Part shown: in pieces, positions 34,248-50,404 of the stretch | Numbering within the stretch: the stretch's first letter is position 1 | Layout: every line of letters starts with the position of its first letter | The notes under the pieces: model-generated | What the model was told of the DNA's origin: nothing | What the model saw: only the letters and a program-made list of their open reading frames with translations | Database searches by the model: none | NCBI GenBank assembly: GCA_031370645.1 | Contig: JANMQV010000009.1 | Coordinates: 2,200 to 66,199, forward strand | DNA: 64,000 bases | Reading direction: 5' to 3' | DNA from: Candidatus Eiseniibacteriota bacterium | GTDB taxonomy: Bacteria > Eisenbacteria > RBG-16-71-46 > SZUA-252 | Translations under genes and position numbers: made by a program

Positions 34248-34249
34248 AC

Positions 34250-35554: not shown

Positions 35555-35600
35555 CCGCTGGAGGGATCGTGCCGGGGCAAACGGGTTGAAGCAAGTTCTC

Positions 35601-36830
35601 ATGATCGCCTATCACTATCCTCCGCTTCGGGGGAGTAGCGGAATTCAGCGGACGCTTGCGTTCTCGCGCGATCTTCGCGAATTCGGATGGCAGCCGATCG
35701 TCCTGTCGGCCAACCCGCGCGCCTATCCCGGAACCGGCGCCGACCAGCTGCGCGATATCCCTGCGGATGTTCCCGTCTACCGCCCCTTCGCACTCGATAC
35801 GTCGCGGCACCTGTCGATCCGTGGCGCCTATCCGCAGGCGCTCGCGCTCCCCGATCGGTGGTCGAGCTGGCTCCTCGGCGCGGTGCCCGCGGGGTGGGGC
35901 ATCATTCGCCGGCATCGGCCCGACGTCATCTGGTCGACCTATCCGATCGCCACGGCCCACTTGATCGGTCTCTGGCTGCAGCGACTCTCCGGGCTCCCCT
36001 GGGTCGCCGATTTTCGCGACTCCATGACGGAGGCCAACTTTCCGCCGGACCCCACGCTTCGCCGCGTCCGCCAAGACCTCGAACGGAAAACCGTGGAGCG
36101 CGCGTCGCGATCCGTGTTCACGACGCCCGGCGCCCGGCGTATGTATGCGGAGCGCTACCCGAACCTCTCGGCGGAGCGATGGACCGTGATCCCGAACGGA
36201 TACGACGAGGGGCCGTTTCACGACGCGGAGGGCGCCGCCGGACCGACGCGGGCCGAGGGAGCGCCGACCGTGCTCGTCCACAGCGGGCTCCTCTATCCCA
36301 ACGAGCGAGATCCCCGCGCGTTTTTCGATGCGCTGGCGTCGCTACGGCGCCAAGGGGCGGTCTCGTCGAGCACGTTGCAGGTCGTCCTCCGGGCAACCGG
36401 CTTCGACGATCCGTACCGTCCCATGCTGCGCGAGCGGGGAATCGAAGATCTCGTGCGTCTCGAGCCGCCGCTCGGTTACCGCGCCGCGCTCGCCGAGATG
36501 CTCGCCGCCGACGGGCTTCTCCTCTTCCAGGCCGCGAACTGCAATCATCAGATCCCGGCGAAGGTCTACGAGTACCTTCGGGCGCGACGACCGATCTTCG
36601 CCATGACCGACTCCGGCGGCGACACCGCGCGCGTCCTCCGAGAAGCGGGAGTCGACAGCATCGTCCCGCTCGATTCCGCGGAGAAGATCGCTCAGGGTCT
36701 GTCGACCTTCCTCGACGCGCTCCGCCGGAAGGCCGCAGCGGTGCCCGGGCCCGAAGTGGTCGACCGCTATTCTCGTCGCGCGCGGGCACGCGAGCTCGCG
36801 GCGCTTCTCGATTCGATCACCGGAGGCTGA
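35601..36830 (+). CDS. Glycosyltransferase (GT4-like), exosortase-locus associated
   Basis: MIAYHYPPLRGSSGIQRTLAFSRDL N-terminus, with a GT-B C-terminal region. Confidence 0.65.
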   Translation: MIAYHYPPLRGSSGIQRTLAFSRDLREFGWQPIVLSANPRAYPGTGADQLRDIPADVPVYRPFALDTSRHLSIRGAYPQALALPDRWSSWLLGAVPAGWGIIRRHRPDVIWSTYPIATAHLIGLWLQRLSGLPWVADFRDSMTEANFPPDPTLRRVRQDLERKTVERASRSVFTTPGARRMYAERYPNLSAERWTVIPNGYDEGPFHDAEGAAGPTRAEGAPTVLVHSGLLYPNERDPRAFFDALASLRRQGAVSSSTLQVVLRATGFDDPYRPMLRERGIEDLVRLEPPLGYRAALAEMLAADGLLLFQAANCNHQIPAKVYEYLRARRPIFAMTDSGGDTARVLREAGVDSIVPLDSAEKIAQGLSTFLDALRRKAAAVPGPEVVDRYSRRARARELAALLDSITGG

Positions 36831-36843
36831 CCGAGGAGCATTC

Positions 36844-38157
36844 ATGCGCGACTATCTCGTGCTGGCCATCATCCTTCTCGGGGCGCCGCTCGCCCTCTTC
36901 CGGCCGTATCTCGGCATCCTCTGGTGGTGCTGGATCAGCTACATGAATCCCCACCGCCTTACGTGGGGGATCGCCTACAACTTCCCGGCCGCCATGGTGA
37001 TCGGCGGCGCCACGCTGGCGGGGCTCCTCTTCACCAAGGATCGAACGAAGGTCCCGTTCGAGCGAGAGACGATCCTTCTCATCATTCTCTACATCCTGTT
37101 CGTCGTGACGACGAACTTCGCCCTCGCTCCTATTTCAGCGTGGAGCCGCTTCACGGAAATCTCGAAGATTCTCCTGATGACGGTCGCCACGATGGCGCTC
37201 GTCACCTCGCGGCATCGGTTCCGGACGTTTCTTTTGGTGATCGCCTTGTCGGTCGGATTCTTCGGCGCGAAGGGAGGCCTCTTCAGCCTTCGGGGCGGCG
37301 GCGTGGACCGAATCTACGGCCCCCCGGGCTCGTTCCTCGAGGACAACAATGATCTGGCGCTCGCCATCGTCATGGTGCTTCCGCTGCTCTTCTACCTGAC
37401 CCGCGACGAACCTCGAGCCTGGTTCCGGTGGGTGTTGCGAGGGACGGGCCTTCTTTCGATTCTCACCGTCATCTTCACCTACTCGCGCGGAGGGTTCGTC
37501 GGGCTCGCGGCTATCGCGGGGTGGTCGCTTCTGAAGTCGAAGAAGAAGTTTTTGGCGGTGATTCTGCTCGCGCTCGCGGTCGGAGTCGGATTCTTCTTCG
37601 TGCCGACGCAGTGGGTGGATCGAATGCAGACGATCGGCGACGTCGCGGACGAGTCGGCGCAAGGGCGGATCAACGCCTGGATGTTCGCCTACAATCTCGC
37701 TTCCGCCCGGCTCTTCGGCGGAGGCTTCGATGTCTGGTCGCCCGACCTCTTTCTCAGATACGCGCCGAATCCGACGGATTTTCACGCCGCTCACAGCATC
37801 TATTTCGAAATGCTCGGCGAGCAGGGCTTCATCGGGCTCGGACTCTTCCTGGCCATCCTCGCCTCTTCGATCTTCAGTTTGCAGGGACTACGTCGCTACC
37901 GACACTGGCCGGAGATGCGGTGGGTATCGGACTACGCCGACATGCTGCAGATCGCCTTGATCGGCTACGTCACGAGCGGGGCGTTTCTCGGGCGCGCGAA
38001 CTTCGACCTCTACTACCACTTGATCGCCGCCACGATCATCTTGAAAGCGCTCGCGAAACGGGAGGCGTGGGCTCTCTCGCAGGCCGCCGCGGAGCCGGAG
38101 CCCGCGTCCGAGATTCCCGCGCTGTCCCAGCCCGTGCCGGGACTACAACCGGGGTGA
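36844..38157 (+). CDS. O-antigen ligase-like / putative O-glycosylation ligase, exosortase A system-associated (TIGR03097-like, Wzy_C family)
   Basis: About 10-12 TM helices and a Wzy_C-type loop (FTYSRGGFVGLAAIAGWSLL...HSIYFEMLGEQG). GAGGAG RBS. Confidence 0.75.
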   Translation: MRDYLVLAIILLGAPLALFRPYLGILWWCWISYMNPHRLTWGIAYNFPAAMVIGGATLAGLLFTKDRTKVPFERETILLIILYILFVVTTNFALAPISAWSRFTEISKILLMTVATMALVTSRHRFRTFLLVIALSVGFFGAKGGLFSLRGGGVDRIYGPPGSFLEDNNDLALAIVMVLPLLFYLTRDEPRAWFRWVLRGTGLLSILTVIFTYSRGGFVGLAAIAGWSLLKSKKKFLAVILLALAVGVGFFFVPTQWVDRMQTIGDVADESAQGRINAWMFAYNLASARLFGGGFDVWSPDLFLRYAPNPTDFHAAHSIYFEMLGEQGFIGLGLFLAILASSIFSLQGLRRYRHWPEMRWVSDYADMLQIALIGYVTSGAFLGRANFDLYYHLIAATIILKALAKREAWALSQAAAEPEPASEIPALSQPVPGLQPG

Positions 38158-40083: not shown

Positions 40084-40099
40084 TGGTGCGAAATTTGCG
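40084..40099 (+). promoter_or_regulatory. Candidate sigma54 promoter TGGTGCG-N4-TTGCG, about 55 nt upstream of the Fn3/CTD gene and exosortase
   Basis: Correct GG-N10-GC spacing, with 2 mismatches in the -24 box. It lies in a 495-bp divergent intergenic region. Confidence 0.3.
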
Positions 40100-40154: not shown

Positions 40155-41198
40155 ATGAGAGTCCGATTCATGCCCGACGTGGTTCGCGCCCTGGCGTGCG
40201 CGGGTATCGTCTCAACCATGACGATTGCCCCGGCGGCGTTCTTCCTGCCGGCGACGCCTGCCTTCGCGCAGACCAGTGCCGCGAACAGCATGACACTACT
40301 TTGGACGGCGTCGGGAGATGACGGAGACCAGGGGCAGGTGAGCGGTTATGAAGCGCGCTTTCGCACCACCCCGCCTGCCGCGGGCGACACCCTCACCTGG
40401 TGGAATGGCGTGCCCTCCGGGCAACGAATCACCCTCGGCCCGCCTCGCGCGTCGGCTGGCGCCGATGATTCGACGAAAGTGACCGGATTGTCTCAGAACA
40501 CTACGTATTACTTCGTGATTCGGGCCTTCGACGAACAGCCCAATTACTCCGCGTACTCGAACGTCGCTACCGGAACTACCGCCTCATGCAACGCTCCCAG
40601 CGCGGCGCCAACCGGATTCGGAGCGGTTGCCGACACGGGACAGGTGACCGTCTCGTGGGGCGCCACGTCCGACCCGCTCGCGCTCTCCCTCCACTTGTAC
40701 CGAGCTCAGGGTTCGACGGGCGCGTTCAACCAGATTCAGAATCTCTCGCCCGGCACGACCTCGTTCCTCGACACGTCCGTCTTGGCCGGCACGACCTATC
40801 GATATCGCGCGGCCTACATGGGCACGCTCTGCGAAGGCCCGACGACCGGCGTCGCGACCGTGACGCTGCCGGGGACGCCGCCGCCACCGCCGCCCGCGGC
40901 CACGGCGGGCTCTTCGACCATTCACGCCTATCCGAACCCCGCGAGCAGCGCGACCGGATCGATTCGGATCGTCGTCGATGTGGACGCCACCGTGGCGACA
41001 CCGGCCTACCTTCGTCTCTTCGACCTGAACGGACACTGGGTCGCCACGCTGGCCGATGGGAACTACCCGCCCGGTAAGACCGAGGTAGCCTGGAACCGGA
41101 TCGGGCGCGACGGGCGAACCGTGGGACCCGGTTACTATGAAATCCTCGGGACCATAGGCATCACGCGGGTACGCGACCGCATCGTCCTCCTTCCGTAG
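40155..41198 (+). CDS. Secreted Fn3-like repeat protein with T9SS-type C-terminal sorting domain
   Basis: Signal peptide ending AFAQ. First repeat LLWTASGDDGDQGQVSGYEARFRT...TLTWWNG; second Fn3-like domain (LYRAQGS...TTYRYRAAY). C-terminus HAYPNPASS...LRLFDLNGHWVATL...GYYEILG...RIVLLP. GGAGG RBS. Confidence 0.65.
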   Translation: MRVRFMPDVVRALACAGIVSTMTIAPAAFFLPATPAFAQTSAANSMTLLWTASGDDGDQGQVSGYEARFRTTPPAAGDTLTWWNGVPSGQRITLGPPRASAGADDSTKVTGLSQNTTYYFVIRAFDEQPNYSAYSNVATGTTASCNAPSAAPTGFGAVADTGQVTVSWGATSDPLALSLHLYRAQGSTGAFNQIQNLSPGTTSFLDTSVLAGTTYRYRAAYMGTLCEGPTTGVATVTLPGTPPPPPPAATAGSSTIHAYPNPASSATGSIRIVVDVDATVATPAYLRLFDLNGHWVATLADGNYPPGKTEVAWNRIGRDGRTVGPGYYEILGTIGITRVRDRIVLLP

Positions 41199-42733
41199 TG
41201 AATCCCGCCCCTTCGCGCGGTTGGACCTCCGCGCTCGTCGCGTTCGCCGCGACGTTTGTCTTCGCGCTCCTCGTCTACGGGAGCACCATCGCGTCGCTCG
41301 TGAACATCTGGAGAATCTCGGACACCTTCGCGCATGGATTCCTCGTGCTGCCGGTCTGCGTCCTTCTTGCGTGGCGCTCGCGCGACCGGCTGGTAACGCT
41401 CCAGCCGCGACCCTACCCCCTCGCCCTGATCGGACTCCTTCCACTCGGCTTCGGGTGGATCATGGGCCGCGCCGCGAGCACGCTCTCCGTCGAACAGTTC
41501 TGTTTCGTGGCGATGATTCCGATCCTCGTGATTGCGCACTTCGGCCCGGCCGTCGCTCGCCGCCTCGCGTTTCCGCTCGCGTTTCTCTTCTTCGCCGTGC
41601 CGTTCGGCGATGTCTTCCAGCCGCGGCTCATGGAGATCACCGCCGGGTTCGCGGAGCGGACGCTTCGATGGAGCGGCGTGGAAGTTTCCCGGGAGGGGCT
41701 CTTCCTCGCCACGACGAATTCACGCTGGCGGGTCGTCGAGTCGTGCAGCGGGCTGCGATTCACGGTCGCGGGAGTCGTTCTGGCGACTCTCTTCGCCCAC
41801 CTCTCGTACCGTTCGAATCTCAAGCGGGCCATCTTCGTCGCCTCGGCCGTGCCCGTTTCGATTCTCGCGAACGGGATCCGCGCATACGTCCTCATCATGC
41901 TCGGACACCTGACCCACATGCGCCGTGGCGTGGGATTCGATCACTACATGTACGGATGGCTCGTCTTCACGCTCGTGATGGCCGCGTTCTTCATGATCGG
42001 CTCCGCATTTCGAGATCCTGAACGGCCGGCAACTCCCGCGGGTACGGGAGAAGGGGACGGTCCGCCGAGTGCGCCGCTCCCCCTCGGCCGTCGCGTCTCT
42101 GTCGCGGCTCTCGCGGCCATCTTCCTTGCCGCGTGGCCGGTGCTCGATGCGATCGGTTCGTCCCGCGGACTCGATCGGACTCCCGTCGTTCTCGCCGCCC
42201 CGGCCCCGCAGCGTGGCTGGGTGCTCGAGGCCGTGCAGGACTCGCTTTGGAAGCCCCACTTTCTCGGCGCCACTTCCGAGCTGAATGAACGCTATGCCGG
42301 AGCCGGCGGCACCGTTCAATGCTTTGTCGCGTATTACACGAACCAGTCGCAGGGGCGGGAACTGCTGCACACGGGGAACCGGATCATCGTGATGGGAGAT
42401 CCGACGTGGCTCGTCGTCGGGGAGGGGAGCCGCTCGTTGCCCGGCAGCTCGCCGCCCGCGTCGATCCGTGAGACCTCGGTTCGCGGTCCCGACGGTCCGA
42501 TGGTCGTCTGGAACTGGTACTGGCTTCCCGACGAGTACACTTCCGACCCGTTCCGGGCAAAGTGGCTTCAAGCGAAGAGCCGCATGCTCGGCCGGGGAGA
42601 CCGTGCCGCCGTGATCGTGCTCGCCGCGACCGCGCCCGATCCGCGCGACGCCGAACGGTTGCTGGCGCAATTCAGCGGCGACATGCTCCCTTCGATCCGA
42701 CTCGCCCTTCGAAGCGCGCAACATTCCCGCTAG
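41198..42733 (+). CDS. xrtA: Exosortase A fused to EpsI-family domain (XrtA-EpsI)
   Basis: Eight TM helices with exosortase catalytic motifs (ESCSGLRF Cys, ANGIRAY Arg, FAHG). The C-terminal roughly 200 aa are EpsI-like (soluble, after GSAFRD). GTG start overlapping the upstream TAG (TAGTG). Confidence 0.85.
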   Translation: MNPAPSRGWTSALVAFAATFVFALLVYGSTIASLVNIWRISDTFAHGFLVLPVCVLLAWRSRDRLVTLQPRPYPLALIGLLPLGFGWIMGRAASTLSVEQFCFVAMIPILVIAHFGPAVARRLAFPLAFLFFAVPFGDVFQPRLMEITAGFAERTLRWSGVEVSREGLFLATTNSRWRVVESCSGLRFTVAGVVLATLFAHLSYRSNLKRAIFVASAVPVSILANGIRAYVLIMLGHLTHMRRGVGFDHYMYGWLVFTLVMAAFFMIGSAFRDPERPATPAGTGEGDGPPSAPLPLGRRVSVAALAAIFLAAWPVLDAIGSSRGLDRTPVVLAAPAPQRGWVLEAVQDSLWKPHFLGATSELNERYAGAGGTVQCFVAYYTNQSQGRELLHTGNRIIVMGDPTWLVVGEGSRSLPGSSPPASIRETSVRGPDGPMVVWNWYWLPDEYTSDPFRAKWLQAKSRMLGRGDRAAVIVLAATAPDPRDAERLLAQFSGDMLPSIRLALRSAQHSR

Positions 42734-43145
42734 TTCCTCCCGCTTCACCTCCTCACCCCCAAACGATTCTCGTTCGATCGCGTGCAGCATGAGCGACCGC
42801 CGCGTGCGGATCGCGCCGTGCATCGTGCGCGTTCGGACACGCCTCGCGCGCTAGCTGCTTACCGACGACCGTGTTTGCAGCGTGCAGGGTGCACCGCGCG
42901 TACTCCGCGCCATGGCACATTTCGTGCAGACACTGGCGCGCGGTGGGATGGGGGTCCTGCCAAACATCAATCGAGTCCCATGAACGCATGCGACCCGCCC
43001 TCTCGGGTGGGGAGCAACACCGTGGGCAATCGGACCCAGGCGAACGCTCGCGTTCGGCTGGGTACAGAACTGCATCTCGAGGAGGATCTCCATGCGCCGT
43101 TGCCTACCTGTTCCTCACCACCCCCTTCGCGGCCCTCGAATCGCG

Positions 43146-43979
43146 ATGCGGGGAGTCATGCGCCGTTCTCTCCTGATCGGAGCGGCGATTCTCACCATGT
43201 TCGCGGCCGGAGTCGCGAAAGCACAGACCTCGGCCGACTCGTCGGTAGTTCTGCAGTGGACCGCGCCGGGAGATGACGGCACGATCGGCCGCGCCACATC
43301 GTATGACCTTCGGTATCGCACGACCGCGATCTCGGCCACGGATACTCTGACGTGGTGGAACGGCGCGACTCCGGTAAGCGGCGAGCCCGTCCCGAGCACC
43401 TCCGGAGCGACCGATTCGATGCGAGTACGCGGTCTCACGCCCTTGACGACCTACTTCTTCATCGTGCGCGCGGCCGATGAGGTTCCGAATTGGTCGGGAT
43501 ACTCGAACGTGGCGAGCAAGACGACGTCCGGCGATGCGACGCCGCCGGCCGCCATTACCACGCTGGCGGTGACCGCTACGACCGGCTCCACCATGGCACT
43601 TCGGTGGAACGCTCCGGGTAACGACGGGAGCACGGGCACGGCCGCCAGCTACGATATCCGCTATTCGACGAGTCCCATCACCTCGGCCAATTGGACAACC
43701 GCAACGCAGGCGACCGGGGAACCGGCTCCCGCCGTCGCGGGGACGCAGCAGGTCTACACACTCCCCGGACTCTCCGGAAGTCAGACCTATTACGTGGCGA
43801 TCAAGGCGACGGACGGCAGCGGTAACGTCGGAGCGCTGTCGAATGTCGTGAGCGGCACCACGGCCGACACGGTCGCGCCGGCCGCGGTTCGCGATCTCTC
43901 GATGCGCGATCTGCCGGCGGGCAATCAAGGGCCGCCGGTCGCGACGCTTCGCGGCGGCAACGAGCGTCATGATTCCTAA
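43146..43979 (+). CDS. Secreted protein with two Fn3-like repeats (paralog of flanking genes; no C-terminal sorting domain)
   Basis: Signal peptide (MRGVMRRSLLIGAAILTMFAAGVAKAQ). Repeats VLQWTAPGDDGTIGRATSYDLRYRT...TLTWWNG and ALRWNAPGNDGSTGTAASYDIRYST. Confidence 0.55.
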   Translation: MRGVMRRSLLIGAAILTMFAAGVAKAQTSADSSVVLQWTAPGDDGTIGRATSYDLRYRTTAISATDTLTWWNGATPVSGEPVPSTSGATDSMRVRGLTPLTTYFFIVRAADEVPNWSGYSNVASKTTSGDATPPAAITTLAVTATTGSTMALRWNAPGNDGSTGTAASYDIRYSTSPITSANWTTATQATGEPAPAVAGTQQVYTLPGLSGSQTYYVAIKATDGSGNVGALSNVVSGTTADTVAPAAVRDLSMRDLPAGNQGPPVATLRGGNERHDS

Positions 43980-44934
43980 ACGTTCTCCTGGAGGTTGCTT
44001 CGGGGTTGCGAGGGCGGCGGCATTCGCCGCCCTCCTTCTCCCGGGATCGGCCGCGGCCGATTCAATCACGCTCTCGTGGACCGCGCCGGGCGACGACGGC
44101 AACACGGGCCGGGCGACCTCCTATGAGCTTCGCTACTCGGATCAGGCGATTGCGGGGCAGGACACGGTCTCGTGGTGGAACTCCGCCTCCGTGGCCGGCG
44201 CGCTTCCTTCGCCTCAGTCGGCGGGGGCTCGCGAGTCGTTCACGTTGCCGGGGCTGACGACCGGACTCACGTATTACTTCGTCCTCCGCACGTCGGATGA
44301 AGTGCCGAACGTCTCCGGATTCTCGAACGCGCGCATGCGCCAGGTCGGAGCGGTCGCGCTCGCGACGCCGACCGGCTTCACCGCGCAGGCGGCGACGGGC
44401 GGAGTCCTGCTGTCGTGGCAAGAGCCGGCGTCGGGCGCGGGGGAGGGGTACCATCTCTATCGTCGCGAAGGCGCGAGCGGCGCGGACACGCTGCTTCGGA
44501 CCTCACCGCTCGGCACGACGCGATGGACCGACCCGTCCGCCAAGGCGGGCACGGACTATGAATATCGGATCGCAACCTATCTCGGCGCCGTGGAAGGCAC
44601 GCCCGCCGTCGCGACCATCAACGTCCCGGCCGTCGCCATCGCCGAAGGCGTGACCGTGATCGAGGGCTATCCTAATCCCGCTCACGGCAGCGTGACGTTT
44701 CGATTCCGCGCCGAGACGAGGGATGGATCACCAGGACACGCGCGAATCGTCGTCTTCGACATGGGCGGCCACCGAATCGCTCAACTCCTCGATGGAGAGG
44801 TACCGTCCGGCGAGCAATCGATCCAGTGGCTCTGCCGCTCCGACCAGGGAAGCCCGGTGTCCCCGGGCCTCTACAACGCCATCCTCGACGGACCCGAGGG
44901 GCGTTCCGTGATGCGCGTGGCTGTCGTTCCCTGA
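43969..44934 (+). CDS. Secreted Fn3-like repeat protein with T9SS-type C-terminal sorting domain
   Basis: Signal peptide (AFAALLLPGSAAA). ITLSWTAPGDDGNTGRATSYELRYS...TVSWWN, and a second Fn3-like domain (HLYRREG...DYEYRIATY). C-terminus GYPNPAHGSVTF...IVVFDMGGHRIAQL...GLYNAIL...RVAVVP. Confidence 0.65.
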   Translation: MIPKRSPGGCFGVARAAAFAALLLPGSAAADSITLSWTAPGDDGNTGRATSYELRYSDQAIAGQDTVSWWNSASVAGALPSPQSAGARESFTLPGLTTGLTYYFVLRTSDEVPNVSGFSNARMRQVGAVALATPTGFTAQAATGGVLLSWQEPASGAGEGYHLYRREGASGADTLLRTSPLGTTRWTDPSAKAGTDYEYRIATYLGAVEGTPAVATINVPAVAIAEGVTVIEGYPNPAHGSVTFRFRAETRDGSPGHARIVVFDMGGHRIAQLLDGEVPSGEQSIQWLCRSDQGSPVSPGLYNAILDGPEGRSVMRVAVVP

Positions 44935-45043: not shown

Positions 45044-45976
45044 GTGAAGGGGACGGAATCGAACTCGAAACGCTCCGCGGAGCCTCTCTTCGCGATGAGC
45101 GTCGACGTCGAGGAGCACTTCCAAGTTCAGGCGTTCGCGAAACTCGTCCCGCGAGAGTCGTGGCCGCTTCACCCGTCCCGTGTCGAGCAGAACACCCGCC
45201 TCTTGCTCGACCTCTTCGACGAATCCGGGACCAAGGCCACGTTCTTCACGCTCGGCTGCGTGGCGCGGGAACACCCGAGCCTCGTTCGCGAAATCGTGGT
45301 TCGCGGTCACGAGATGGCTTCGCACGGCATGGATCATCGAATGTTGACCGAACTCACCCCCGACGAATTCCGAATTCAAGCACGCGATTCGCGCGCCCTC
45401 CTCGAAGATCTCACGGGGAAGCGGGTCCTCGGATTTCGAGCGCCCTCCTATAGCATCGGACGCTCGACGCTCTGGGCCATCGATTTGCTCGCGGAGACGG
45501 GGTACGAATATGATTCGAGCGTCTATCCGATCCGCCGGCGGCGGTACGGATATCCGGAGGGCCCGGTGGCGCCCGCGATGATTCGTGGGCCGGGCGGCGC
45601 GTCGCTCGCGGAATTTCCATTACCGACACTCGCGGTCGGTCCGTTGCGGATTCCCGTACTCGCCGGCGCATTCCTGCGCCTCCTTCCACTTCATCTCTCG
45701 CGTCTCGCGCTCGAGCTTCATCGCTCCGGTGCCCGCGCGCTCATCGTGAACGTTCACCCTTGGGAACTCGATCCCACGCAACCGACCCTCGGTCCGTCAC
45801 GCCGCGCGACCTGGACGCACTACGCGCGACTCGGCCGCGTGGAGGGAATTCTCCGCGCGCTACTTTCGCGCGCGACATTTCGGACCGCGGCGACTCGACT
45901 GGGGCAACTCGGACTCTTGCCTGGCTCGAGGGGCTTGAACGAGATTCCGAGTGCCGACGTCAAATCGGGGGACTAG
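45044..45976 (+). CDS. Polysaccharide deacetylase family protein, PEP-CTERM locus subfamily (TIGR03006-like)
   Basis: MSVDVEEHFQVQAF N-terminus typical of this family, with a NodB-like core (FFTLGCVAREHP, HGMDH). The start may be the internal Met at 45095. Confidence 0.75.
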   Translation: MKGTESNSKRSAEPLFAMSVDVEEHFQVQAFAKLVPRESWPLHPSRVEQNTRLLLDLFDESGTKATFFTLGCVAREHPSLVREIVVRGHEMASHGMDHRMLTELTPDEFRIQARDSRALLEDLTGKRVLGFRAPSYSIGRSTLWAIDLLAETGYEYDSSVYPIRRRRYGYPEGPVAPAMIRGPGGASLAEFPLPTLAVGPLRIPVLAGAFLRLLPLHLSRLALELHRSGARALIVNVHPWELDPTQPTLGPSRRATWTHYARLGRVEGILRALLSRATFRTAATRLGQLGLLPGSRGLNEIPSADVKSGD

Positions 45977-46243: not shown

Positions 46244-46972
46244 TTGAAGCAAAGCCGACTTTGGATCCCTGCTCTGATCATCGCCGTCATGGCGGTGAAT
46301 GCTCCCGCGGCCTTTGCTATTCCCGCCCTGCAGCTTTATTGCCCGGACGCCACGTACGACCAGCTGAACGAAACGTGGGTGATCTCCGATAACACCTTCG
46401 AGCTCCAGGTCATCGGCGCCGTCGGGAGTTATGGATCGATCTACGACGTGACGCTCGCGGCCTCGTTCTACGGCACCGGCGGCAACATGAGTATTCTCCC
46501 TGGACTCGCGGTCGACGCAGACTACGCCGACAAGCCGGGCTTCAAGGCAGGGGTCTCCAATCACGCCGAGTTCAAGAACGCGAACAGCCACGCGTTCTAC
46601 GACATCGGCGACTTCACGAAGACGACCGACACGATTTACGATTACACTGGCGGACCGCTCGGTTCGGCGAAGCAGGGCGAGATCAAGTCGTACATGATCC
46701 ACATCACTGGTTACGACGCGGTCCACTTCGACGCCTTCGACCACTACTACACGCAGCAGGGTCGGACGGCGACGTACAAGCTCCACGGAGTCTTCGCCCC
46801 GTTCTCCCACGATGCGACGGGTGGCGGTGGTGAAGGTGGCAGCGGTGGAGGTGGCGGTAGCGGTGGTGGTGGCGGGAACGGCGGTGGCGGTGGCTCCACG
46901 GTTCCTGAGCCCGCGTCGCTGCTTCTTCTGGCTCCGGGTCTCGCGGGACTGCTGATCCGCCGCAAGAAGTAA
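46244..46972 (+). CDS. PEP-CTERM sorting-domain protein (exosortase substrate)
   Basis: Signal peptide (IPALIIAVMAVNAPAAFA), a Gly-rich linker (GGGGEGGSGGGGGSGGGGGNGGGGGS), then VPEPASLLLLAPGLAGLLIRRKK: PEP motif + TM helix + basic tail. TTG start 9 nt after GGGAGAGG. Confidence 0.85.
   Translation: MKQSRLWIPALIIAVMAVNAPAAFAIPALQLYCPDATYDQLNETWVISDNTFELQVIGAVGSYGSIYDVTLAASFYGTGGNMSILPGLAVDADYADKPGFKAGVSNHAEFKNANSHAFYDIGDFTKTTDTIYDYTGGPLGSAKQGEIKSYMIHITGYDAVHFDAFDHYYTQQGRTATYKLHGVFAPFSHDATGGGGEGGSGGGGGSGGGGGNGGGGGSTVPEPASLLLLAPGLAGLLIRRKK
46816..46900 (+). repeat. Glycine-codon simple repeat (GGN)n inside the PEP-CTERM gene linker
   Basis: ggtggcggtggtgaaggtggcagcggtggaggtggcggtagcggtggtggtggcgggaacggcggtggcggtggc. 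Confidence 0.5.
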
Positions 46973-47110: not shown

Positions 47111-48202
47111 ATGGCCAAGCCTTCGATCCTTCCTCTGCTAATTCTCACCACGCTACTCGTCCCCACGTTTGCATCCGCGCAGGCGGCGGCCTCTGACGTT
47201 CCAGTTGCGCCGCAGGCGCCCCGCGAACTTCTCACGATTCTAGCCGAGCCGGCCCAGACACGCCTCCGCCTCGACTCGAAGAGCGGCGAGATTCACGGCC
47301 TGGCCCCGCTCGACGTCGCCGCGACCTTTGAGGGGCCGTTCCGCGTCACCCTCGAAGGACCACGCGTGGCGCGCACTCGTGGATCGATCGTCATTCCGGG
47401 TCACGGCGGAAGGGTATCTCTGCTCTCCGAGCCGCGTCAGCCTAGCTTGGAGCTTCTGGTGCGGTCGCTCAACTTCCCGGGCGTCGCCAATATCACGACT
47501 GGCCGGACGGGGCGCGGAATCGTCCTCGGCGTGGCGGCCATCGGCGGCCTGTTCGCTACGACTCGCGCTCACATGATGTATCGCGATCGACTCGGGGAGT
47601 TCGGCGACTATGCGGCCGACCGTGCCCGCGACGAGCGCCTCTCTCGGAATTCCTGGGCGCGCTACAGCGCCGCGACATGGGGGGTGAGCGCGGTCGACTA
47701 CTGGCTCCGCCCGCGCCTCGCGATCGAAGAGGTCGCGAACCAACGCCTCGTCCTTTCCGCCCCGGCCGTCACGCGAACCTCCATCGTCTGGCGGTCGCTT
47801 CTGATCCCGGGCGCCGGGCAGGAATTCGCGAACCACAGCGGCCGCGGCGCGCTTTGGCTTGGAGCCACGTTGGCCGCCGGCGCGGGGCTCGTGGTGGCCG
47901 ACGGCATGGTGGAGCGTGATCAGACTCGGGTCGATTGGGCGGAAATGCAGATCGACAGCGCGGGCCCGACGGAGCGTGTCGAGCGCGTGCGTGACTGGGA
48001 ACGCCGGAAGCGCGATCTCCAATCCTCCGAAGACCTGCGACGCGGATTTCGCTACGGCCTGATCGGCTCCTATCTCGCGAACGTCGTCGATGCGATCTTC
48101 GTCCCCATGGGACGTCCCGCTCCGGTAGGGAAGGCGCGGCTCTCCACCTCGGCGATCATCCGACCGGATGGTCCCGAGCTCGTAACGACTCTCCACTTCT
48201 AG
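47111..48202 (+). CDS. Secreted/membrane hypothetical protein with DUF5683-like motif
   Basis: Signal peptide (LLILTTLLVPTFASAQA). The central SLLIPGAGQEF...ALWLGATLAAGAGLVV resembles the S-x-(L/I)PG-x-GQ motif plus TM of DUF5683. Confidence 0.5.
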   Translation: MAKPSILPLLILTTLLVPTFASAQAAASDVPVAPQAPRELLTILAEPAQTRLRLDSKSGEIHGLAPLDVAATFEGPFRVTLEGPRVARTRGSIVIPGHGGRVSLLSEPRQPSLELLVRSLNFPGVANITTGRTGRGIVLGVAAIGGLFATTRAHMMYRDRLGEFGDYAADRARDERLSRNSWARYSAATWGVSAVDYWLRPRLAIEEVANQRLVLSAPAVTRTSIVWRSLLIPGAGQEFANHSGRGALWLGATLAAGAGLVVADGMVERDQTRVDWAEMQIDSAGPTERVERVRDWERRKRDLQSSEDLRRGFRYGLIGSYLANVVDAIFVPMGRPAPVGKARLSTSAIIRPDGPELVTTLHF

Positions 48203-48543
48203 GCAGCCCTCCTTACGGCGGCGCGCACGCGCCTGCATCGCGCACCCTCCCGGCGCGTTCGAGCCAATCTCTCTCCTTCTTCGAACCCTCATCGCGAGAC
48301 GCCTCACTGTGCAATATGCGGCATCCGTACCGATCCGTGCGTGGCTGGTTCGACGCGCCGCCATGCGCGCGATGCACCCCCTTGCGCCGCAACGAAGTCG
48401 AGGCTCGCGGAGCGCCGCAGCGCCGCTTTTCCCGTGGCACGCTAACTGCTTTAACGGGAAGTGGGTCTGCTGTGTCGCACCGCGCCAGGGGGTCGAAGGC
48501 CGGCGACCAGGCTATGGGGGATTCTTCAGACGGGAGATTTCTT

Positions 48544-50127
48544 ATGACTTGGTCCACTCCGGGTCGAACGACGCCGAAGCACGCGATGCTCCGACTCGCT
48601 CCTCTCGCTGTTCTGATGGCCACACTCCTGTACCCGGGGGTACGTGGCACCGCATCCGCCGCGCTCGTCGGCGGGTCGTCGGCGGACTTCCTTCAGTTCG
48701 AGGTCGGCGGTCGATCGGCGGGCATGGGCGGCGCCCAAACGGGCGTCGCGACGGGCGTGACGGCTCAGTTCTGGAACCCCGCACTCTTGGCGACGCTTCA
48801 GAATCCGGAGGTCGGTGCGCTGCACGCCTCGTGGCTACAGGACCTGAGCTACGAGTGGGTCGGCTATGCGCGCCCCCTCGGATCGAGCCTCGGCGTTGGA
48901 TCGGTCTCGGCGGCGTACTTCCATATGCCGAGCATCCAGGGCGTCGATGAGTTCAACAACCCGACCGGCACCTTCCGCGTCTACGACCTCGCGATCACGG
49001 CCGGACTCTCGCGGCCCGTCGCGCGCGGCGTGAACGTCGGCGCCAATCTCAAGATGATCCGGCAGAATCTCGCGACCGTTTCAGCGACGGGCGTGGCCGC
49101 CGATTTCGGCGTCGCGGCGGCCGTGCTCGGCGGCACGGTCGGCCTCGCGGTCCAGAATGTGGGACCGAACATGGCGTACAGCGATGCCGCCTCCTACCCG
49201 CTACCGCAGCAGATCCGCTTCGGCGTGAGCCGCGGCTTTCTTCAAGAGCGCCTTCTTGTCGCGGCCGACTACAACTCGCCCCGCAACTATTTTAACGACG
49301 TCCGACTCGGCACCGAGTTCAAGGCGCACCGGAACATCTCCATTCGTCTCGGTTATCGCTATGAACTCGGAAGCTCGAACGACCCGGTCACCGGGCTCTC
49401 GTACGGACTCGGCCTTCACTTCGGCCCGGCATCGCTCGATTACGCGATGACTCCGAGCAACGACTTCGACAACGTGCAGCGCTTCGCGTTCGGATACAGT
49501 TTCGGCGGCGGCGCCGAGGAGACGCCGGCGAAGCCGCAGGCGCCGAAGAAGCAGAAGCCGCTGCCGCCGGCGCCGCCGAAGAACCCGACCACGGTCGCCG
49601 CCGCGCCGAACGCGAAGAAGAATCCGAAGCCGGTCGCACCCGTGAGCATCCTTTCGGACACGAAGACGGTTGCCTCCGCGCCCGTGGCCCCGGTCGTGTC
49701 GCCTGATGTCCGCTCCGCGACGGAGACTGCCGCGCCGAAGTCGAACAACACTCCGACCGAGTCGGCGCCGAGCCCCGCTCCCGTCGTGATCGCGACGGCT
49801 CCGGAGAAGGCGCCCGAAACAATCGTGGAGAAGGCCGCTGAGAAGGCTCCGGAGAAGAGTGCCCCGAAGGAATCGAAGCCCGTGAAGGTCGTCCTCGAGC
49901 ACCTCGTGTTGCTCCTCGGCTATAGCTCGATGGAAAGTGCTCAGTCCGAGATGAAGGCGCTCCAGCTACTCGGATTCAGGACGAAGGACGCGTCGATAGT
50001 GGCCGACCCGAAGGGGGGCTACGCCATTCGCCTCGCGCAGATGAAGTCGAAGGACAGCGCGGAGGGAATGGTTTCGGATCTCGCTCGGATGTCGTTTCGG
50101 GCCGTGGTACAGACCGTCCAGCGCTAG
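48544..50127 (+). CDS. PorV/PorQ-family-like outer-membrane beta-barrel protein with Pro/Lys/Ala-rich linker and C-terminal SPOR domain
   Basis: Signal peptide (MLRLAPLAVLMATLL). The N-terminal GSSADFLQFEVGGRSAGMGGAQTGVATGVTAQFWNPALLA matches the hallmark start of PorV-like barrels, followed by alternating beta-strand patterns. A low-complexity linker (PAKPQAPKKQKPLPPAPPKNP...EKAPEKSAPKESKP) follows. The C-terminal roughly 75 aa are SPOR-like (VVLEHLVLLLGYSSMESAQSEMKALQLLGF...GYAIRLAQMKSKDSAEGMVSDL). ATG 7 nt after GGGAGA. Confidence 0.55.
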   Translation: MTWSTPGRTTPKHAMLRLAPLAVLMATLLYPGVRGTASAALVGGSSADFLQFEVGGRSAGMGGAQTGVATGVTAQFWNPALLATLQNPEVGALHASWLQDLSYEWVGYARPLGSSLGVGSVSAAYFHMPSIQGVDEFNNPTGTFRVYDLAITAGLSRPVARGVNVGANLKMIRQNLATVSATGVAADFGVAAAVLGGTVGLAVQNVGPNMAYSDAASYPLPQQIRFGVSRGFLQERLLVAADYNSPRNYFNDVRLGTEFKAHRNISIRLGYRYELGSSNDPVTGLSYGLGLHFGPASLDYAMTPSNDFDNVQRFAFGYSFGGGAEETPAKPQAPKKQKPLPPAPPKNPTTVAAAPNAKKNPKPVAPVSILSDTKTVASAPVAPVVSPDVRSATETAAPKSNNTPTESAPSPAPVVIATAPEKAPETIVEKAAEKAPEKSAPKESKPVKVVLEHLVLLLGYSSMESAQSEMKALQLLGFRTKDASIVADPKGGYAIRLAQMKSKDSAEGMVSDLARMSFRAVVQTVQR

Positions 50128-50218: not shown

Positions 50219-50404
50219 TAGGGATACGTGGGGGCATAACGGGGCACCGTGGTATACGTGCGCCCCTTCCGCCTTTGCTCCCGCCACGGTGGTTCATGGT
50301 GCCGGTGCCCATGGATGCCGCGCCCAGAGGGCGCCGCTCGTAGCATTCCTCGCGAGTGGATCATTCCGCCCGGCGCAGCTTCGAGCCAACGACGGTGGCC
50401 ATTG

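What the first reader, a model, noticed from the sequence alone, without database searches (positions are those of the whole stretch)
40155..44934. Exosortase gene embedded in and translationally coupled to T9SS-CTD cargo genes with a distinctive Fn3-like repeat
Seen in the sequence:
- Three paralogous secreted proteins (40155-41198, 43146-43979, 43969-44934) flank the XrtA gene.
- Each carries a roughly 90-aa Fn3-like module with a conserved signature: W(T/N)APGDDG..G.A.SY(D/E)(L/I)RY...TL(T/S)WWN ... TYYF.(I/L)RA.DE.PN.S..SN.
- Two of them, and the 980-aa protein at 13521-16469, end in an 80-90-aa domain (YPNPA/PNPFNP...(I/V)RI..(F/Y)D..G..V..L...........W.......G.Y.....(V/L)(V/L)(L/V)P/R) that looks like a type-A T9SS C-terminal sorting domain.
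- None of them has a PEP-CTERM motif.
- The exosortase start (GTG) overlaps the stop of the first gene (TAGTG), indicating co-translation.

From established knowledge: XrtA cleaves PEP-CTERM proteins, whereas T9SS CTDs are removed by PorU.

Inference: two normally separate surface-sorting systems are interleaved in one EPS locus. Either both cargo classes are deployed into the same matrix under common control, or these Fn3 proteins are unrecognised partners or substrates of XrtA.
Basis: partly seen in the sequence, partly recalled or inferred. Interest (0 to 1): 0.72.

Follow-up and report, generated by a model that had tools for sequence, protein, structure and literature searches.

The report
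Exosortase locus with built-in CTD/PorV-like module
In uncultured soil bacteria of the candidate phylum Eisenbacteria, a standard exosortase-type slime (exopolysaccharide) gene cluster also carries a conserved set of fibronectin-like surface proteins tagged with a type-IX-secretion-style tail and a matching PorV-like outer-membrane barrel, so two protein-sorting systems normally studied separately appear to be wired into one locus.

Summary
Three paralogous Fn3 genes flank a canonical XrtA-EpsI gene. A and C end in a T9SS-type C-terminal domain (CTD), none has PEP-CTERM, and A's stop overlaps the xrtA GTG (TAGTG).

Corrections:
- The Fn3 signature is a widespread Fn3 subtype.
- The 982-aa CTD protein lies on the minus strand.

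The window is from Candidatus Eisenbacteria, and about 55 kb of it is a textbook XrtA/PEP-CTERM exopolysaccharide locus.

- About 25 related loci share a core of B, then C with its CTD, then the XrtA-system deacetylase.
- A PorV/Q-like barrel lies nearby, or directly abuts C in distant loci.
- xrtA precedes B-C in 10 loci. It is inverted in one of them, and absent from four close loci and from all distant ones.
- B and the barrel gene each carry a conserved sigma-54 promoter element.
- Every locus-type CTD ends in proline. Generic CTDs nearby do not.
- The CTD profile matches the CTDs of PorU and PorZ best among solved structures.

Best reading: a sigma-54-controlled, CTD-dependent surface module built into the locus, not XrtA substrates. 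T9SS core genes could not be tested. I rate it a new variant of known kinds, of moderate interest.

The parts
40084..40098 (+). Weak candidate sigma-54 -24/-12 element (TGGTGCGAAATTTGC), 57 nt upstream of the start of gene A
   Evidence: It matches 8 of 10 specified positions, with the GG and GC kept. Similar elements lie a similar distance upstream of A in L010, L008 and L092. Weaker than the B and barrel sites.
40155..41198 (+). Gene A: signal peptide, Fn3 with the signature, a second Fn3, a Pro-rich linker, and a C-terminal CTD (about 40926-41195) ending ...RIVLLP
   Evidence: Pfam fn3 28.8 bits. Orthologues at 42-60% identity occur in L001/2, L007, L008, L010 and L012, with A-position genes also called in L090 and L092. 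The CTD is conserved and always ends in Pro. No hit to a T9SS-CTD model at E<=0.01 for the window copy.
41198..42733 (+). xrtA: exosortase A with a fused C-terminal EpsI domain. Its GTG start shares one base with A's TAG stop.
   Evidence: TIGR03109 287.7 bits (cutoff 208), PF09721 and PF11984, TIGR02914. Junction sequence. Orthologues are 43-100% identical in Eisenbacteria; beyond them come betaproteobacterial XrtA at 37-41%.
42913..42927 (+). Sigma-54-type -24/-12 promoter element (TGGCACATTTCGTGC) in the 412-nt gap between xrtA and B
   Evidence: TGGCAC-N5-(C/G)TGC lies upstream of B in 11 of 11 close loci, and also in L091 and L092. Flanks are not conserved. Chance expectation is 0.0155 per 510 nt.
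43146..43979 (+). Gene B: signal peptide plus two signature Fn3 domains. It has neither a CTD nor PEP-CTERM.
   Evidence: Pfam fn3 56.7 bits in two stretches. Conserved at 62-76% identity immediately upstream of C in all close loci, with a conserved 4- or 11-nt overlap with C.
43969..44934 (+). Gene C: signal peptide, signature Fn3, a second Fn3, and a CTD (about 44650-44931) ending ...RVAVVP
   Evidence: More than 120 full-length orthologue clusters, those with names being Candidatus Eisenbacteria. The AF2 model has three beta-sandwiches, the last with 7 strands and pLDDT of about 90. The CTD family hits TIGR04183 in 18 of 21 orthologues. The CTD profile best matches the PorU CTD (6za2_A, E=1.4e-7) and also the PorZ CTD.
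45044..45976 (+). XrtA-system polysaccharide deacetylase, probably in the same transcription unit as B-C
   Evidence: TIGR03006 289.1 bits (cutoff 276.2). It follows C after a 65-160-nt gap in every close locus.
46244..46972 (+). PEP-CTERM protein (choice-of-anchor N domain): the only recognisable XrtA substrate in the window
   Evidence: PF07589 24.7 bits (cutoff 20.7), NF038141 109.6 bits. The tail is VPEPASLLLLAPGLAGLLIRRKK.
47111..48202 (+). 363-aa membrane protein of unknown function, conserved just upstream of the barrel gene
   Evidence: No family hit for the window copy. Orthologues carry a weak DUF5683 hit. Synteny in L001-3, L007, L012, L013, L090 and L092. Signal peptide and hydrophobic segments are visible in the translation.
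48435..48449 (+). Sigma-54-type -24/-12 element (TGGCACGCTAACTGC) upstream of the PorV-like gene
   Evidence: Present at 9 of 10 positions upstream of the orthologous gene in 6 of 7 loci, plus L092. L012 and L090 have 8 of 10.
48586..50127 (+). PorV/PorQ-family 14-strand outer-membrane barrel, a Pro/Ala/Lys-rich linker, and a C-terminal SPOR-like domain. The ORF opens at 48316; the likely start is the Met before the signal peptide.
   Evidence: NF033709 157.6 bits (cutoff 90). The PorQ model scores 104 (cutoff 220) and the PorV model 54.5 (cutoff 250). The only sequence hit among solved structures is PorV 6h3i_F. The AF2 barrel's best Foldseek hits are PorV 8gl6_F and 6h3i_F at E of about 1e-12. 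Orthologues carry PF05036 SPOR.
50249..51178 (+). Priming polyprenyl glycosylphosphotransferase of the EPS pathway
   Evidence: TIGR03025 280.6 bits and TIGR03013 257.9 bits, both just below their cutoffs.
51279..54647 (+). PAS histidine kinase (51279-53192) and an NtrC-type sigma-54 activator response regulator (53205-54647): candidate regulators of the sigma-54 promoters
   Evidence: TIGR02915 (PEP-CTERM-box regulator) scores 377.8 against a cutoff of 502.6, so this is related to PrsR but is not an equivalog. The pair is syntenic in all long loci.
13521..16469 (-). 982-aa GSDH-PKD-LamG protein with a generic T9SS type A CTD ending KLALLR. It serves as the comparison CTD.
   Evidence: TIGR04183 29.8 bits (cutoff 23), PF13860 48.6 bits.
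43..38157 (.). The rest of the XrtA/PEP-CTERM EPS locus. It includes the homologues of VimA (TIGR03019, 4246-5319) and PGN_1234 (TIGR03108, 23370-25394, minus strand), glycosyltransferases, the TIGR03098 ligase, and the TIGR03097 O-ligase-like gene (36844-38157).

Best explanation
The window is a canonical XrtA/PEP-CTERM exopolysaccharide locus of a Candidatus Eisenbacteria bacterium. A second, CTD-based surface-display module is built into it.

**Proposed mechanism (inferred unless marked as shown)**
1. A, B and C are exported by Sec.
2. A and C cross the outer membrane by way of their T9SS-type C-terminal domain.
3. They are then held at the cell surface by the locus-encoded PorV/PorQ-like barrel, which is itself tethered to peptidoglycan by its SPOR domain.
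4. The CTD is probably retained on the barrel, in the way PorU sits on PorV and PorZ on PorQ.
5. B has no CTD and is translationally coupled to C. It probably rides along as C's partner.
6. The module is transcribed from its own sigma-54 promoters, before B-C-deacetylase and before the barrel gene.
7. Those promoters probably answer to the histidine kinase and NtrC-type activator at the end of the locus, so the module is made together with the polysaccharide.
8. XrtA separately processes the PEP-CTERM protein(s).

The position of xrtA between A and B is a conserved syntenic habit of one Eisenbacteria clade. It is not evidence that XrtA acts on the Fn3 proteins.

**Shown here:** gene identities, synteny, promoter-element conservation, CTD and barrel homology, and the terminal-proline signature.

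**Inferred:** secretion route, docking, co-regulation by the neighbouring regulator, and the role of the Fn3 proteins in organising or binding the polysaccharide.
For: **Locus identity**
- TIGR03109, TIGR03006, TIGR03097, TIGR03098, TIGR03108, TIGR03019 and TIGR03087 all score above their cutoffs.

**CTD identity**
- 18 of 21 C orthologues hit TIGR04183, and 17 of 21 hit the PorU model; where the matched region was reported, it is the model's C-terminal CTD.
- The CTD profile's best hit among solved structures is PorU residues 1057-1145 (E=1.4e-7). PorZ residues 676-757 score E=0.0076.
- The profile retrieves proteins of many sizes with a single match at the extreme C-terminus. Nine of 10 such proteins sampled pass TIGR04183.
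- The modelled CTD is a 7-strand sandwich, as described for solved T9SS CTDs (PMC11285876).

**Barrel**
- NF033709 scores 157.6 against a cutoff of 90.
- The model has 14 strands, and PorV is the top match by both sequence and fold.

**Linkage of CTD protein and barrel**
- The barrel gene lies within 7 kb downstream of C in the window, L001/2, L003, L005, L007, L012, L013, L090 and L092.
- It directly abuts C, with 0-4-nt spacing in L014 and L024, in the distant loci L014, L015, L016 and L024, and lies within 250 nt of C in L019 and L020. L024 carries two successive [Fn3-CTD][barrel] pairs.
- All 31 locus-type CTDs end in Pro. The generic CTDs on the same contigs end in Arg.

**Independence from XrtA**
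- There is no xrtA within 9-10 kb in L003, L005/6, L007, L013 or any distant locus. xrtA is inverted in L008.
- XrtA-less L003, L005 and L013 also lack PEP-CTERM ORFs.

**Own promoters**
- TGGCAC-N5-CTGC is conserved before B in 13 loci and before the barrel gene in 7 loci, with unconserved flanks.

**Published precedent**
- PorU and PorZ are anchored at the surface by PorV and PorQ respectively (PMC5562754). Their CTDs are not removed (PMC11285876).
Against: - T9SS core components (SprA/Sov, PorK/L/M/N, PorU) were not shown in any Eisenbacteria genome. No query sequence or literature was available.
- Window A and C on their own miss the TIGR04183 and PF18962 thresholds. Distant C-like proteins hit only FlgD-type models.
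- The same Ig-like domain also occurs as 9-14 internal tandem repeats in giant proteins, so the fold alone is not a secretion signal.
- The barrel fails the PorV and PorQ equivalog cutoffs. Its family also includes non-T9SS FadL-like proteins such as UPF0164.
- Wherever xrtA was found in Eisenbacteria (10 of 10 loci) it lies next to B-C, and A-xrtA overlap or near-abutment recurs in six loci. Some functional tie to XrtA therefore cannot be excluded.
- L011 has xrtA-B-C-deacetylase but no barrel gene within 10 kb downstream.
- Nothing here shows what the Fn3 domains bind.
Confidence: 0.55

Rival explanations
1. The Fn3 proteins are non-canonical substrates or accessory partners of XrtA. XrtA, or its EpsI domain, would act on or with A, B and C even though they lack PEP-CTERM.
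For: - A's stop overlaps or nearly abuts the xrtA start in the window, L001/2, L010, L012, L090 and L092.
- In all 10 Eisenbacteria loci where xrtA was seen, it lies immediately upstream of B-C.
Against: - A, B and C have no PEP motif, no C-terminal transmembrane helix and no basic tail.
- B-C have their own conserved sigma-54 element.
- The B-C-deacetylase-barrel set persists without xrtA in L003, L005/6, L007, L013 and in all distant loci.
- xrtA is inverted in L008.
- A true PEP-CTERM substrate is present in the locus.
Confidence: 0.12
2. The C-terminal domain is only a generic FlgD-like Ig domain, and the barrel is a FadL-like channel serving polysaccharide or lipid traffic. On this view the resemblance to T9SS parts is shared ancestry, and no CTD-dependent sorting occurs.
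For: - Window A and C miss the T9SS CTD thresholds, and FlgD models often score as well or better.
- The domain also forms long internal tandem arrays.
- The barrel fails the PorV and PorQ equivalog cutoffs, and FadL, TodX and TbuX are the next structural matches.
- T9SS core genes are untested.
Against: - The domain is always the last about 90 residues of A and C, and of many unrelated enzymes.
- Nine of 10 sampled neighbours in profile space pass TIGR04183.
- PorU and PorZ CTDs outrank or match FlgD in the search of solved structures.
- The CTD gene and the barrel gene are repeatedly adjacent, and are paired twice in L024.
- The invariant terminal Pro points to selection on the extreme C-terminus, which is where T9SS signals are read.
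Confidence: 0.2
3. The Fn3 genes are a lineage-specific insertion with no functional link to the EPS pathway (genomic hitch-hiking).
For: - The Fn3 subtype is common and mobile across phyla.
- Copy number varies: L010 has an extra B, and A is absent in L009, L011 and L091.
Against: - B-C-deacetylase order, overlaps and promoter element are conserved down to 46% identity.
- The deacetylase is the XrtA-system equivalog.
- The module sits between EPS genes in every locus.
Confidence: 0.05

Closest known systems
XrtA/PEP-CTERM exopolysaccharide locus (Haft et al. 2006; TIGR03109 and associated TIGRFAMs)
   Same: - XrtA with EpsI.
- A PEP-CTERM protein.
- TIGR03006 deacetylase, TIGR03019 FemAB-like protein and TIGR03108 amidotransferase.
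- TIGR03097 O-ligase-like protein, TIGR03098 ligase and the stp glycosyltransferases.
- A chain-length determinant and tyrosine kinase, and a sigma-54 two-component pair.
- All are present.
   Different: - No described XrtA locus model includes Fn3 proteins with a T9SS-type CTD or a PorV/PorQ-family barrel. No NCBIfam model names A, B, C or the 363-aa protein.
- The regulator pair scores below the PrsK and PrsR equivalog cutoffs.
T9SS attachment complex: PorU-PorV and PorZ-PorQ (P. gingivalis; PMC5562754, PMC11285876)
   Same: - A surface protein with a type A-like CTD is paired with a 14-strand PorV/PorQ-family barrel.
- C's CTD profile is closest to the CTDs of PorU and PorZ, which are retained rather than cleaved.
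   Different: - The passenger is two Fn3 domains, not a sortase or an A-LPS carrier.
- The CTD ends in an invariant Pro.
- The barrel carries a C-terminal SPOR domain.
- The genes sit in an exosortase EPS locus under sigma-54 elements.
- The organism lies outside Bacteroidota, and T9SS core genes were not shown.
T9SS cargo anchoring to A-LPS through a Wbp/Vim-pathway linking sugar (Veith et al. 2020, PMC7468200)
   Same: That paper noted that VimA, VimE and PGN_1234 are homologues of the TIGR03019, deacetylase and TIGR03108 genes of PEP-CTERM loci. All three types are in this window, the deacetylase directly after C.
   Different: In that paper the link was a cross-organism analogy. Here CTD proteins, a PorV-like barrel, XrtA and these enzymes lie in one locus. 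No chemistry is known for this organism.
'Choice-of-anchor' protein families (NCBIfam)
   Same: The locus shows that this genome uses both PEP-CTERM and T9SS-type CTD anchors. The PEP-CTERM protein is a choice-of-anchor N member.
   Different: In every orthologue seen, A and C use only the terminal-Pro CTD. No PEP-CTERM variant of them was found.

Membership tests
Exosortase A (XrtA, TIGR03109) | HMM score above the curated cutoff | tested here: met
   287.7 bits against a cutoff of 208. PF09721 scores 223.5 bits.
Exosortase A (XrtA, TIGR03109) | An EpsI partner or domain, and the marker genes of the XrtA EPS locus, in the neighbourhood | tested here: met
   A fused EpsI domain (TIGR02914, 99 bits). 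TIGR03006, TIGR03019, TIGR03087, TIGR03097, TIGR03098 and TIGR03108 all score above their cutoffs.
Exosortase A (XrtA, TIGR03109) | PEP-CTERM substrate(s) encoded in the genome | tested here: met
   There is one in the window, at 46244-46972 (PF07589 and TIGR02595 above their cutoffs).
PEP-CTERM proteins (as applied to A, B and C) | A C-terminal PEP motif, a transmembrane helix and a basic tail | tested here: not met
   No PF07589 or TIGR02595 hit and no motif in A, B or C, or in their orthologues.
T9SS type A C-terminal sorting domain (TIGR04183 / PF18962) | HMM score above the curated cutoff | tested here: inconclusive
   - Window A has no hit. Window C has no TIGR04183 hit at E<=0.01. The 982-aa protein scores 29.8 against 23.
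- 18 of 21 C orthologues hit at E<=0.01, and one is named a T9SS type A sorting-domain protein by NCBI.
- Nine of 10 profile neighbours pass the cutoff.
T9SS type A C-terminal sorting domain (TIGR04183 / PF18962) | The domain occupies the extreme C-terminus of a protein that has an N-terminal signal peptide | tested here: met
   The last 87-88 residues of A and C. Signal peptides were read by eye from the translations. No predictor was run.
T9SS type A C-terminal sorting domain (TIGR04183 / PF18962) | A compact 7-strand Ig-like beta-sandwich | tested here: met
   In the AF2 model of C, residues 230-319 form 7 strands at pLDDT of about 90. The PorU CTD is the best sequence match among solved structures.
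T9SS type A C-terminal sorting domain (TIGR04183 / PF18962) | A T9SS translocon and motor (SprA/Sov, PorK/L/M/N, PorU) encoded in the same genome | not testable with these tools
   - Only 64 kb of this genome, and flanks of at most 10 kb elsewhere, were available.
- No core-component query sequence was at hand.
- No paper pairs Eisenbacteria with T9SS.
PorV/PorQ family (NF033709) | HMM score above the family cutoff | tested here: met
   157.6 bits against a cutoff of 90. NCBI names the orthologues 'PorV/PorQ family protein'.
PorV (NF033710) or PorQ (NF033711) equivalogs | HMM score above the equivalog cutoff | tested here: not met
   PorV scores 54.5 against 250, and PorQ 104.2 against 220. 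It is therefore a family member but neither PorV nor PorQ proper.
PorV/PorQ family (NF033709) | A 14-strand FadL-type barrel most similar to PorV | tested here: met
   14 strands in the AF2 model. The Foldseek top hits are 8gl6_F and 6h3i_F (PorV) at E of about 1e-12, ahead of TbuX, TodX and FadL.
Fibronectin type III (PF00041) | HMM score above the gathering threshold | tested here: met
   A 28.8, B 56.7 and C 51.7 bits against 25. The fold search returns Fn3 tandems.

The most novel reading that the evidence does not exclude
Eisenbacteria carry a dedicated, locus-encoded CTD-sorting pair. It consists of a terminal-proline subclass of the T9SS-type CTD, read by its own SPOR-tethered PorQ/PorV-like barrel. 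The pair displays Fn3 proteins that organise an exosortase-dependent polysaccharide matrix. On this reading the polysaccharide, or a Vim-like amino-acid-modified linking sugar made by the same locus, is the common acceptor onto which both XrtA (for PEP-CTERM cargo) and a PorU-type sortase (for CTD cargo) attach proteins. That would give physical genomic evidence that exosortase and type IX attachment chemistry are two faces of one ancestral glycan-anchoring system.
Probability: 0.15. Interest if true: 0.8.

Novelty: new variant of a known kind. Interest (0 to 1): 0.55.

Why it matters
Exosortase/PEP-CTERM sorting is still biochemically unresolved: what XrtA attaches its substrates to is unknown. 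T9SS attachment to A-LPS is much better understood. Veith et al. (PMC7468200) pointed out that the enzymes making the T9SS linking sugar are homologues of signature genes of PEP-CTERM loci, but they had no organism in which the two systems meet.

This Eisenbacteria locus is such a meeting point, and it is conserved across a phylum-level radiation. It holds:
- XrtA and a PEP-CTERM protein;
- T9SS-type CTD proteins with a private C-terminal signature;
- a PorV/Q-like barrel;
- what look like shared sigma-54 promoters.

It offers testable predictions about CTD-barrel specificity, through the terminal Pro, and about a shared glycan acceptor. It would also extend CTD/PorV-type sorting to a phylum for which the literature searches made here found no T9SS report.

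If instead it is only co-location, the result is still a useful annotation. It would give three unnamed, phylum-wide protein families (A, B, C) and a PorV/Q-SPOR barrel family as accessory genes of the Eisenbacteria XrtA locus.

Tried and rejected
**Searches that found nothing**
- An exact look-up of window protein C found no record. The source contig was not recovered. Only short Logan contigs carry the identical barrel gene.
- Literature searches for Eisenbacteria with 'type IX secretion', 'T9SS' or 'secretion system' found nothing relevant.
- An Rfam scan of 39500-50500 at E<=0.1 found nothing, so the 412-nt gap holds no known RNA element.

**Uninformative results**
- A Foldseek search of the whole C model gave only generic Fn3 tandems, with PorU at rank 34. 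It says little about the CTD.
- The plain window-wide count of sigma-54 consensus matches is at chance level (40 against 36.2 expected). Only the comparative test across loci made those sites meaningful.
- The terminator scan found nothing above chance. No terminator-like site lies between xrtA and B.

**Attempts to find T9SS core genes**
- I tried to reach a PorU-like protein through the CTD profile. The 10 long proteins sampled were ordinary CTD cargo, not PorU.
- I tried to reach a porU-porV operon through homologues of the barrel. The top 120 hits were all orthologues of the locus barrel.

**Ideas considered and rejected**
- That the Fn3 signature defines an unnamed, locus-specific family. 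It is a widespread subtype that also partly matches the CLCA C-terminal Fn3, MXAN_2561 and CbhB models.
- That B carries a degenerate CTD or a conserved tail. Its last about 25-40 residues are not conserved.
- That the XrtA-EpsI fusion is unusual. Betaproteobacterial XrtA proteins have the same length and domains.

Full report
**1. Observation**

The ORF map matches the finding.
- Gene A (40155-41198), gene B (43146-43979) and gene C (43969-44934) are paralogous secreted proteins.
- All three pass Pfam fn3 (28.8, 56.7 and 51.7 bits against a cutoff of 25).
- All carry the motif W-T-A-(P/S)-G-D-D-G ... T-Y-Y-F ... D-E-x-P-N-x-S. B carries it twice.
- The gene between A and B is exosortase A with a fused EpsI domain (TIGR03109 287.7 bits against a cutoff of 208; TIGR02914 99 bits).
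- A's TAG stop and the xrtA GTG start share one base (…CCGTAGTGAAT…).
- B and C overlap by 11 nt.
- A motif scan of all ORFs finds exactly three proteins with a PNP(A/F)… domain 83-88 residues from the C-terminus: A, C and the 982-aa protein. It finds exactly one PEP-CTERM tail, and that tail is in none of them.

- The 982-aa gene is on the minus strand.
- A 412-nt gap separates xrtA from B.

**2. Setting**

Orthologues of C, of the barrel and of XrtA that carry a source name are mostly from Candidatus Eisenbacteria (Eiseniibacteriota). GC content is about 65%. From position 43 to about 54.6 kb the window is a textbook XrtA/PEP-CTERM exopolysaccharide locus:
- a chain-length determinant and tyrosine kinase, and TviB/TviC-like sugar enzymes;
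- TIGR03019 FemAB-like protein and TIGR03087 glycosyltransferase;
- TIGR03108 amidotransferase, a TIGR03088-like glycosyltransferase and TIGR03098 ligase;
- TIGR03097 O-ligase-like protein and TIGR03006 deacetylase;
- a priming transferase, a PAS histidine kinase and an NtrC-type sigma-54 activator.

LptE, HolA and LeuS follow.

**3. The Fn3 signature is not distinctive**

Back-translated patterns of the signature retrieved 538 confirmed relatives in species-representative genomes. These include Zixibacteria, Phycisphaerae, Patescibacteria, Gammaproteobacteria, Paenibacillus, Myxococcota, Cloacimonadota and an archaeon. The module also partly matches the CLCA C-terminal Fn3, MXAN_2561 and CbhB models. 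It is a common Fn3 subtype. What is specific is the full-length architecture of A, B and C. More than 120 clusters of full-length C orthologues were found, and those that carry names are Eisenbacteria.

**4. The C-terminal domain**

On their own, window A and C do not reach the T9SS CTD model thresholds. C gives only weak hits to FlgD_ig (E=0.004) and to the CTD end of the PorU model (E=3e-4). The 982-aa protein passes TIGR04183 (29.8 against 23).

At family level the picture is clearer.
- 18 of 21 C orthologues hit TIGR04183 at E<=0.01, 17 hit the PorU model and 3 hit PorZ.
- NCBI names one orthologue a T9SS type A sorting-domain protein.
- A profile of the C-family CTD, searched against all solved structures, hits P. 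gingivalis PorU residues 1057-1145 of 1156 best (E=1.4e-7). FlgD follows (4e-4), then PorZ residues 676-757 of 758 (E=0.0076), then the RgpB CTD only marginally.
- Against 1.84 billion representative proteins, the profile finds 75,162 proteins at E<=1e-3. Many, of very different lengths, have a single match at the extreme C-terminus. Nine of 10 sampled pass TIGR04183.
- The AF2 model of C shows three beta-sandwiches. The last has 7 strands at pLDDT of about 90, the architecture described for solved T9SS CTDs (PMC11285876).

One caveat: the same profile also hits giant proteins with 9-14 internal tandem copies. The fold alone is therefore not a sorting signal.

**5. A private CTD signature**

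Every A-type or C-type CTD in the window and in the related loci ends in proline (31 instances). This includes a beta-helix protein in L006. Endings include …LLP, …VVP, …IIP and …RVP. The generic CTDs on the same contigs end in arginine: KLALLR in the 982-aa protein and LVVLGR in a protease in L014. Selection on the last residue is what one expects if the extreme C-terminus is being read by a partner.

**6. The PorV/PorQ-like barrel**

- The gene at 48586-50127 scores 157.6 bits on NF033709 (cutoff 90). It falls below the PorQ (104 against 220) and PorV (54.5 against 250) equivalog cutoffs.
- Its only sequence match among solved structures is F. johnsoniae PorV.
- Its AF2 model is a 14-strand barrel, a disordered Pro/Ala/Lys linker and a beta-alpha-beta-beta-alpha-beta SPOR-like domain. 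Orthologues carry PF05036 SPOR.
- The top Foldseek hits are PorV in the T9SS translocon structures 8gl6_F and 6h3i_F (E of about 1e-12), ahead of TbuX, TodX and FadL.

**7. Comparative genomics**

I compared 16 proteins of this part of the window with 87 fetched loci by tblastn, and read gene calls for further loci.

Close Eisenbacteria loci (C at 46-86% identity):
- All show B-C-deacetylase.
- When enough sequence is present, most then show a PEP-CTERM protein, the 363-aa membrane protein, the barrel, the priming transferase, and the kinase and regulator.
- xrtA lies immediately upstream of B in the window, L001/2, L009, L010, L011, L012, L090, L091 and L092. It is on the opposite strand in L008.
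- A precedes xrtA, with overlap or a gap of a few bases, in the window, L001/2, L010, L012, L090 and L092.
- L007 has A-B-C with no xrtA between them.
- L003, L005/6 and L013 have B-C-deacetylase-…-barrel with no xrtA within 9-10 kb. Those three also lack any PEP-CTERM ORF.

More distant Eisenbacteria loci (C at 29-36% identity):
- There is no xrtA.
- B, C and a 341-348-aa PorV/Q-family barrel form a tight operon with 0-4-nt spacing (L014, L024). L016 and L020 keep the B-C-barrel order, and in L015 and L019 a barrel gene follows C closely.
- L024 has two successive [Fn3-CTD][barrel] pairs.

The one exception is L011, which has xrtA-B-C-deacetylase but no barrel gene within 10 kb.

The evolutionarily stable unit is therefore B plus C (with its CTD) plus the PorV/Q-like barrel, attached to EPS genes. 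The position of xrtA next to it is a conserved habit of one clade.

**8. Promoters**

- A window-wide scan for TGGCAC-N5-TTGC is at chance.
- However, three of the four one-mismatch hits lie in plus-strand intergenic regions, including 42913-42927 (before B) and 48435-48449 (before the barrel).
- Across loci, TGGCAC-N5-(C/G)TGC is found upstream of B in 11 of 11 close loci, plus L091 and L092. It is found upstream of the barrel gene in 6 of 7 loci, plus L092.
- The flanks are unconserved, and the chance expectation is 0.0155 per 510 nt.
- A weaker element (TGG-N-N-C-G-N-AA-N-TTGC) precedes A in the window, L010, L008 and L092.
- No known RNA family and no terminator-like site lies between xrtA and B.

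B-C, and probably the deacetylase, therefore have their own sigma-54 promoter, and so does the barrel gene. The sigma-54 activator encoded at 53205-54647 is the obvious candidate regulator, though that is inference.

**9. Mechanism proposed**

Shown:
- identities, synteny and promoter elements;
- CTD and barrel homology;
- the terminal-Pro signature;
- independence of the module from xrtA in several lineages.

Inferred:
- A, B and C are Sec-exported. Signal peptides were read by eye.
- A and C use their CTD to cross the outer membrane and are held on the locus-encoded barrel, which its SPOR domain ties to peptidoglycan.
- This follows the precedent of PorU on PorV and PorZ on PorQ (PMC5562754), whose CTDs are retained (PMC11285876).
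- B, coupled to C, is a likely partner.
- The Fn3 array would bind or organise the polysaccharide made by the locus.
- XrtA handles the PEP-CTERM cargo in parallel.

An alternative sub-mechanism is cleavage of the CTD and attachment to a locus-made glycan. [quoted passage not shown]

**10. What could not be done**

I could not show SprA/Sov, PorK/L/M/N or PorU in an Eisenbacteria genome.
- Only 64 kb of this genome, and flanks of at most 10 kb elsewhere, were accessible.
- No core-component sequence was available as a query.
- The literature library holds no paper that pairs Eisenbacteria with T9SS.
[quoted passage not shown] That is indirect support only.

**11. Verdict**

- 'Two sorting systems interleaved under common control' is supported and strengthened.
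- 'Fn3 proteins are XrtA substrates or partners' is not supported.
- The Fn3 repeat is ordinary.
- The conserved combination has no description in the libraries or literature searched. That combination is an XrtA EPS locus, terminal-Pro CTD Fn3 proteins, a PorV/Q-SPOR barrel and sigma-54 elements.
- It is a new variant of known kinds, of moderate interest. It has a more novel reading, a dedicated CTD-barrel pair or a shared glycan acceptor for exosortase and T9SS-type attachment, that the evidence does not exclude.

Noticed in passing
window 42913-42927 and 48435-48449 (also 9016-9030 and 40084-40098): Sigma-54-type -24/-12 elements sit in plus-strand intergenic regions. The ones before B and before the PorV-like gene are conserved across Eisenbacteria loci, with unconserved flanks.
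   Followed up: yes
window 49890-50127 (C-terminal ~80 aa of the PorV-like gene): The PorV/PorQ-like barrel carries a long Pro/Ala/Lys-rich linker and a C-terminal SPOR-like domain. Orthologues hit PF05036. This suggests an outer-membrane barrel tethered to peptidoglycan. Neither the PorV and PorQ models matched here nor the solved PorV chains extend into such a C-terminal extension.
   Followed up: partly
window 13521-16469 (-): A 982-aa glucose/sorbosone dehydrogenase-PKD-LamG protein with a generic T9SS type A CTD sits on the opposite strand in the middle of the EPS locus. It has no obvious tie to polysaccharide synthesis.
   Followed up: partly
window 44935-46243, compared with L001 12037-13473 and L007 11970-13406: Most related loci have a conserved gene of about 478 aa, with no family hit, right after the deacetylase. 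The window, L090 and L092 lack it.
   Followed up: no
L024 10422-16354: Two successive pairs of an Fn3-CTD protein and a PorV/Q-family barrel (335 aa + 341 aa, then 533 aa + 654 aa). This suggests that the pair duplicates as a unit.
   Followed up: partly
L010 8323-10357: An extra copy of gene B lies between xrtA and the B-C pair.
   Followed up: no
Protein-representative hits P0241-P0248: The CTD profile scores highest on giant proteins (1250-2417 aa) with 9-14 internal tandem copies of the FlgD_ig-like domain. The 'CTD' fold is thus also used as a repeat module. Their taxa are unknown.
   Followed up: no
L008, L011, L012 (record titles): Loci with this Eisenbacteria-type architecture, and 53-57% identity to C, are deposited under Hyphomicrobiales, Limnocylindrales and Bacteroidota MAG names. 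These are probably binning or labelling errors.
   Followed up: no
window 28186-30165 (+): A second asparagine-synthase-like gene matches TIGR03108 only from model position 110 onward (276.8 bits against a cutoff of 816.9). It is a paralogue of the XrtA-system amidotransferase that apparently lacks the N-terminal glutaminase part.
   Followed up: no
window 63269-63979 (-): A fragment of an SNF2-type helicase most similar to DISARM DrmD (148 bits, far below the cutoff) lies at the window edge.
   Followed up: no
window 47008-47037 and 47073-47102: A 13-bp GC-rich hairpin lies after the PEP-CTERM gene. A near-consensus sigma-70-type promoter (TTGACA-18-TATAGT) follows it, before the 363-aa membrane-protein gene. 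The pattern scans suggest a transcription-unit boundary here.
   Followed up: no
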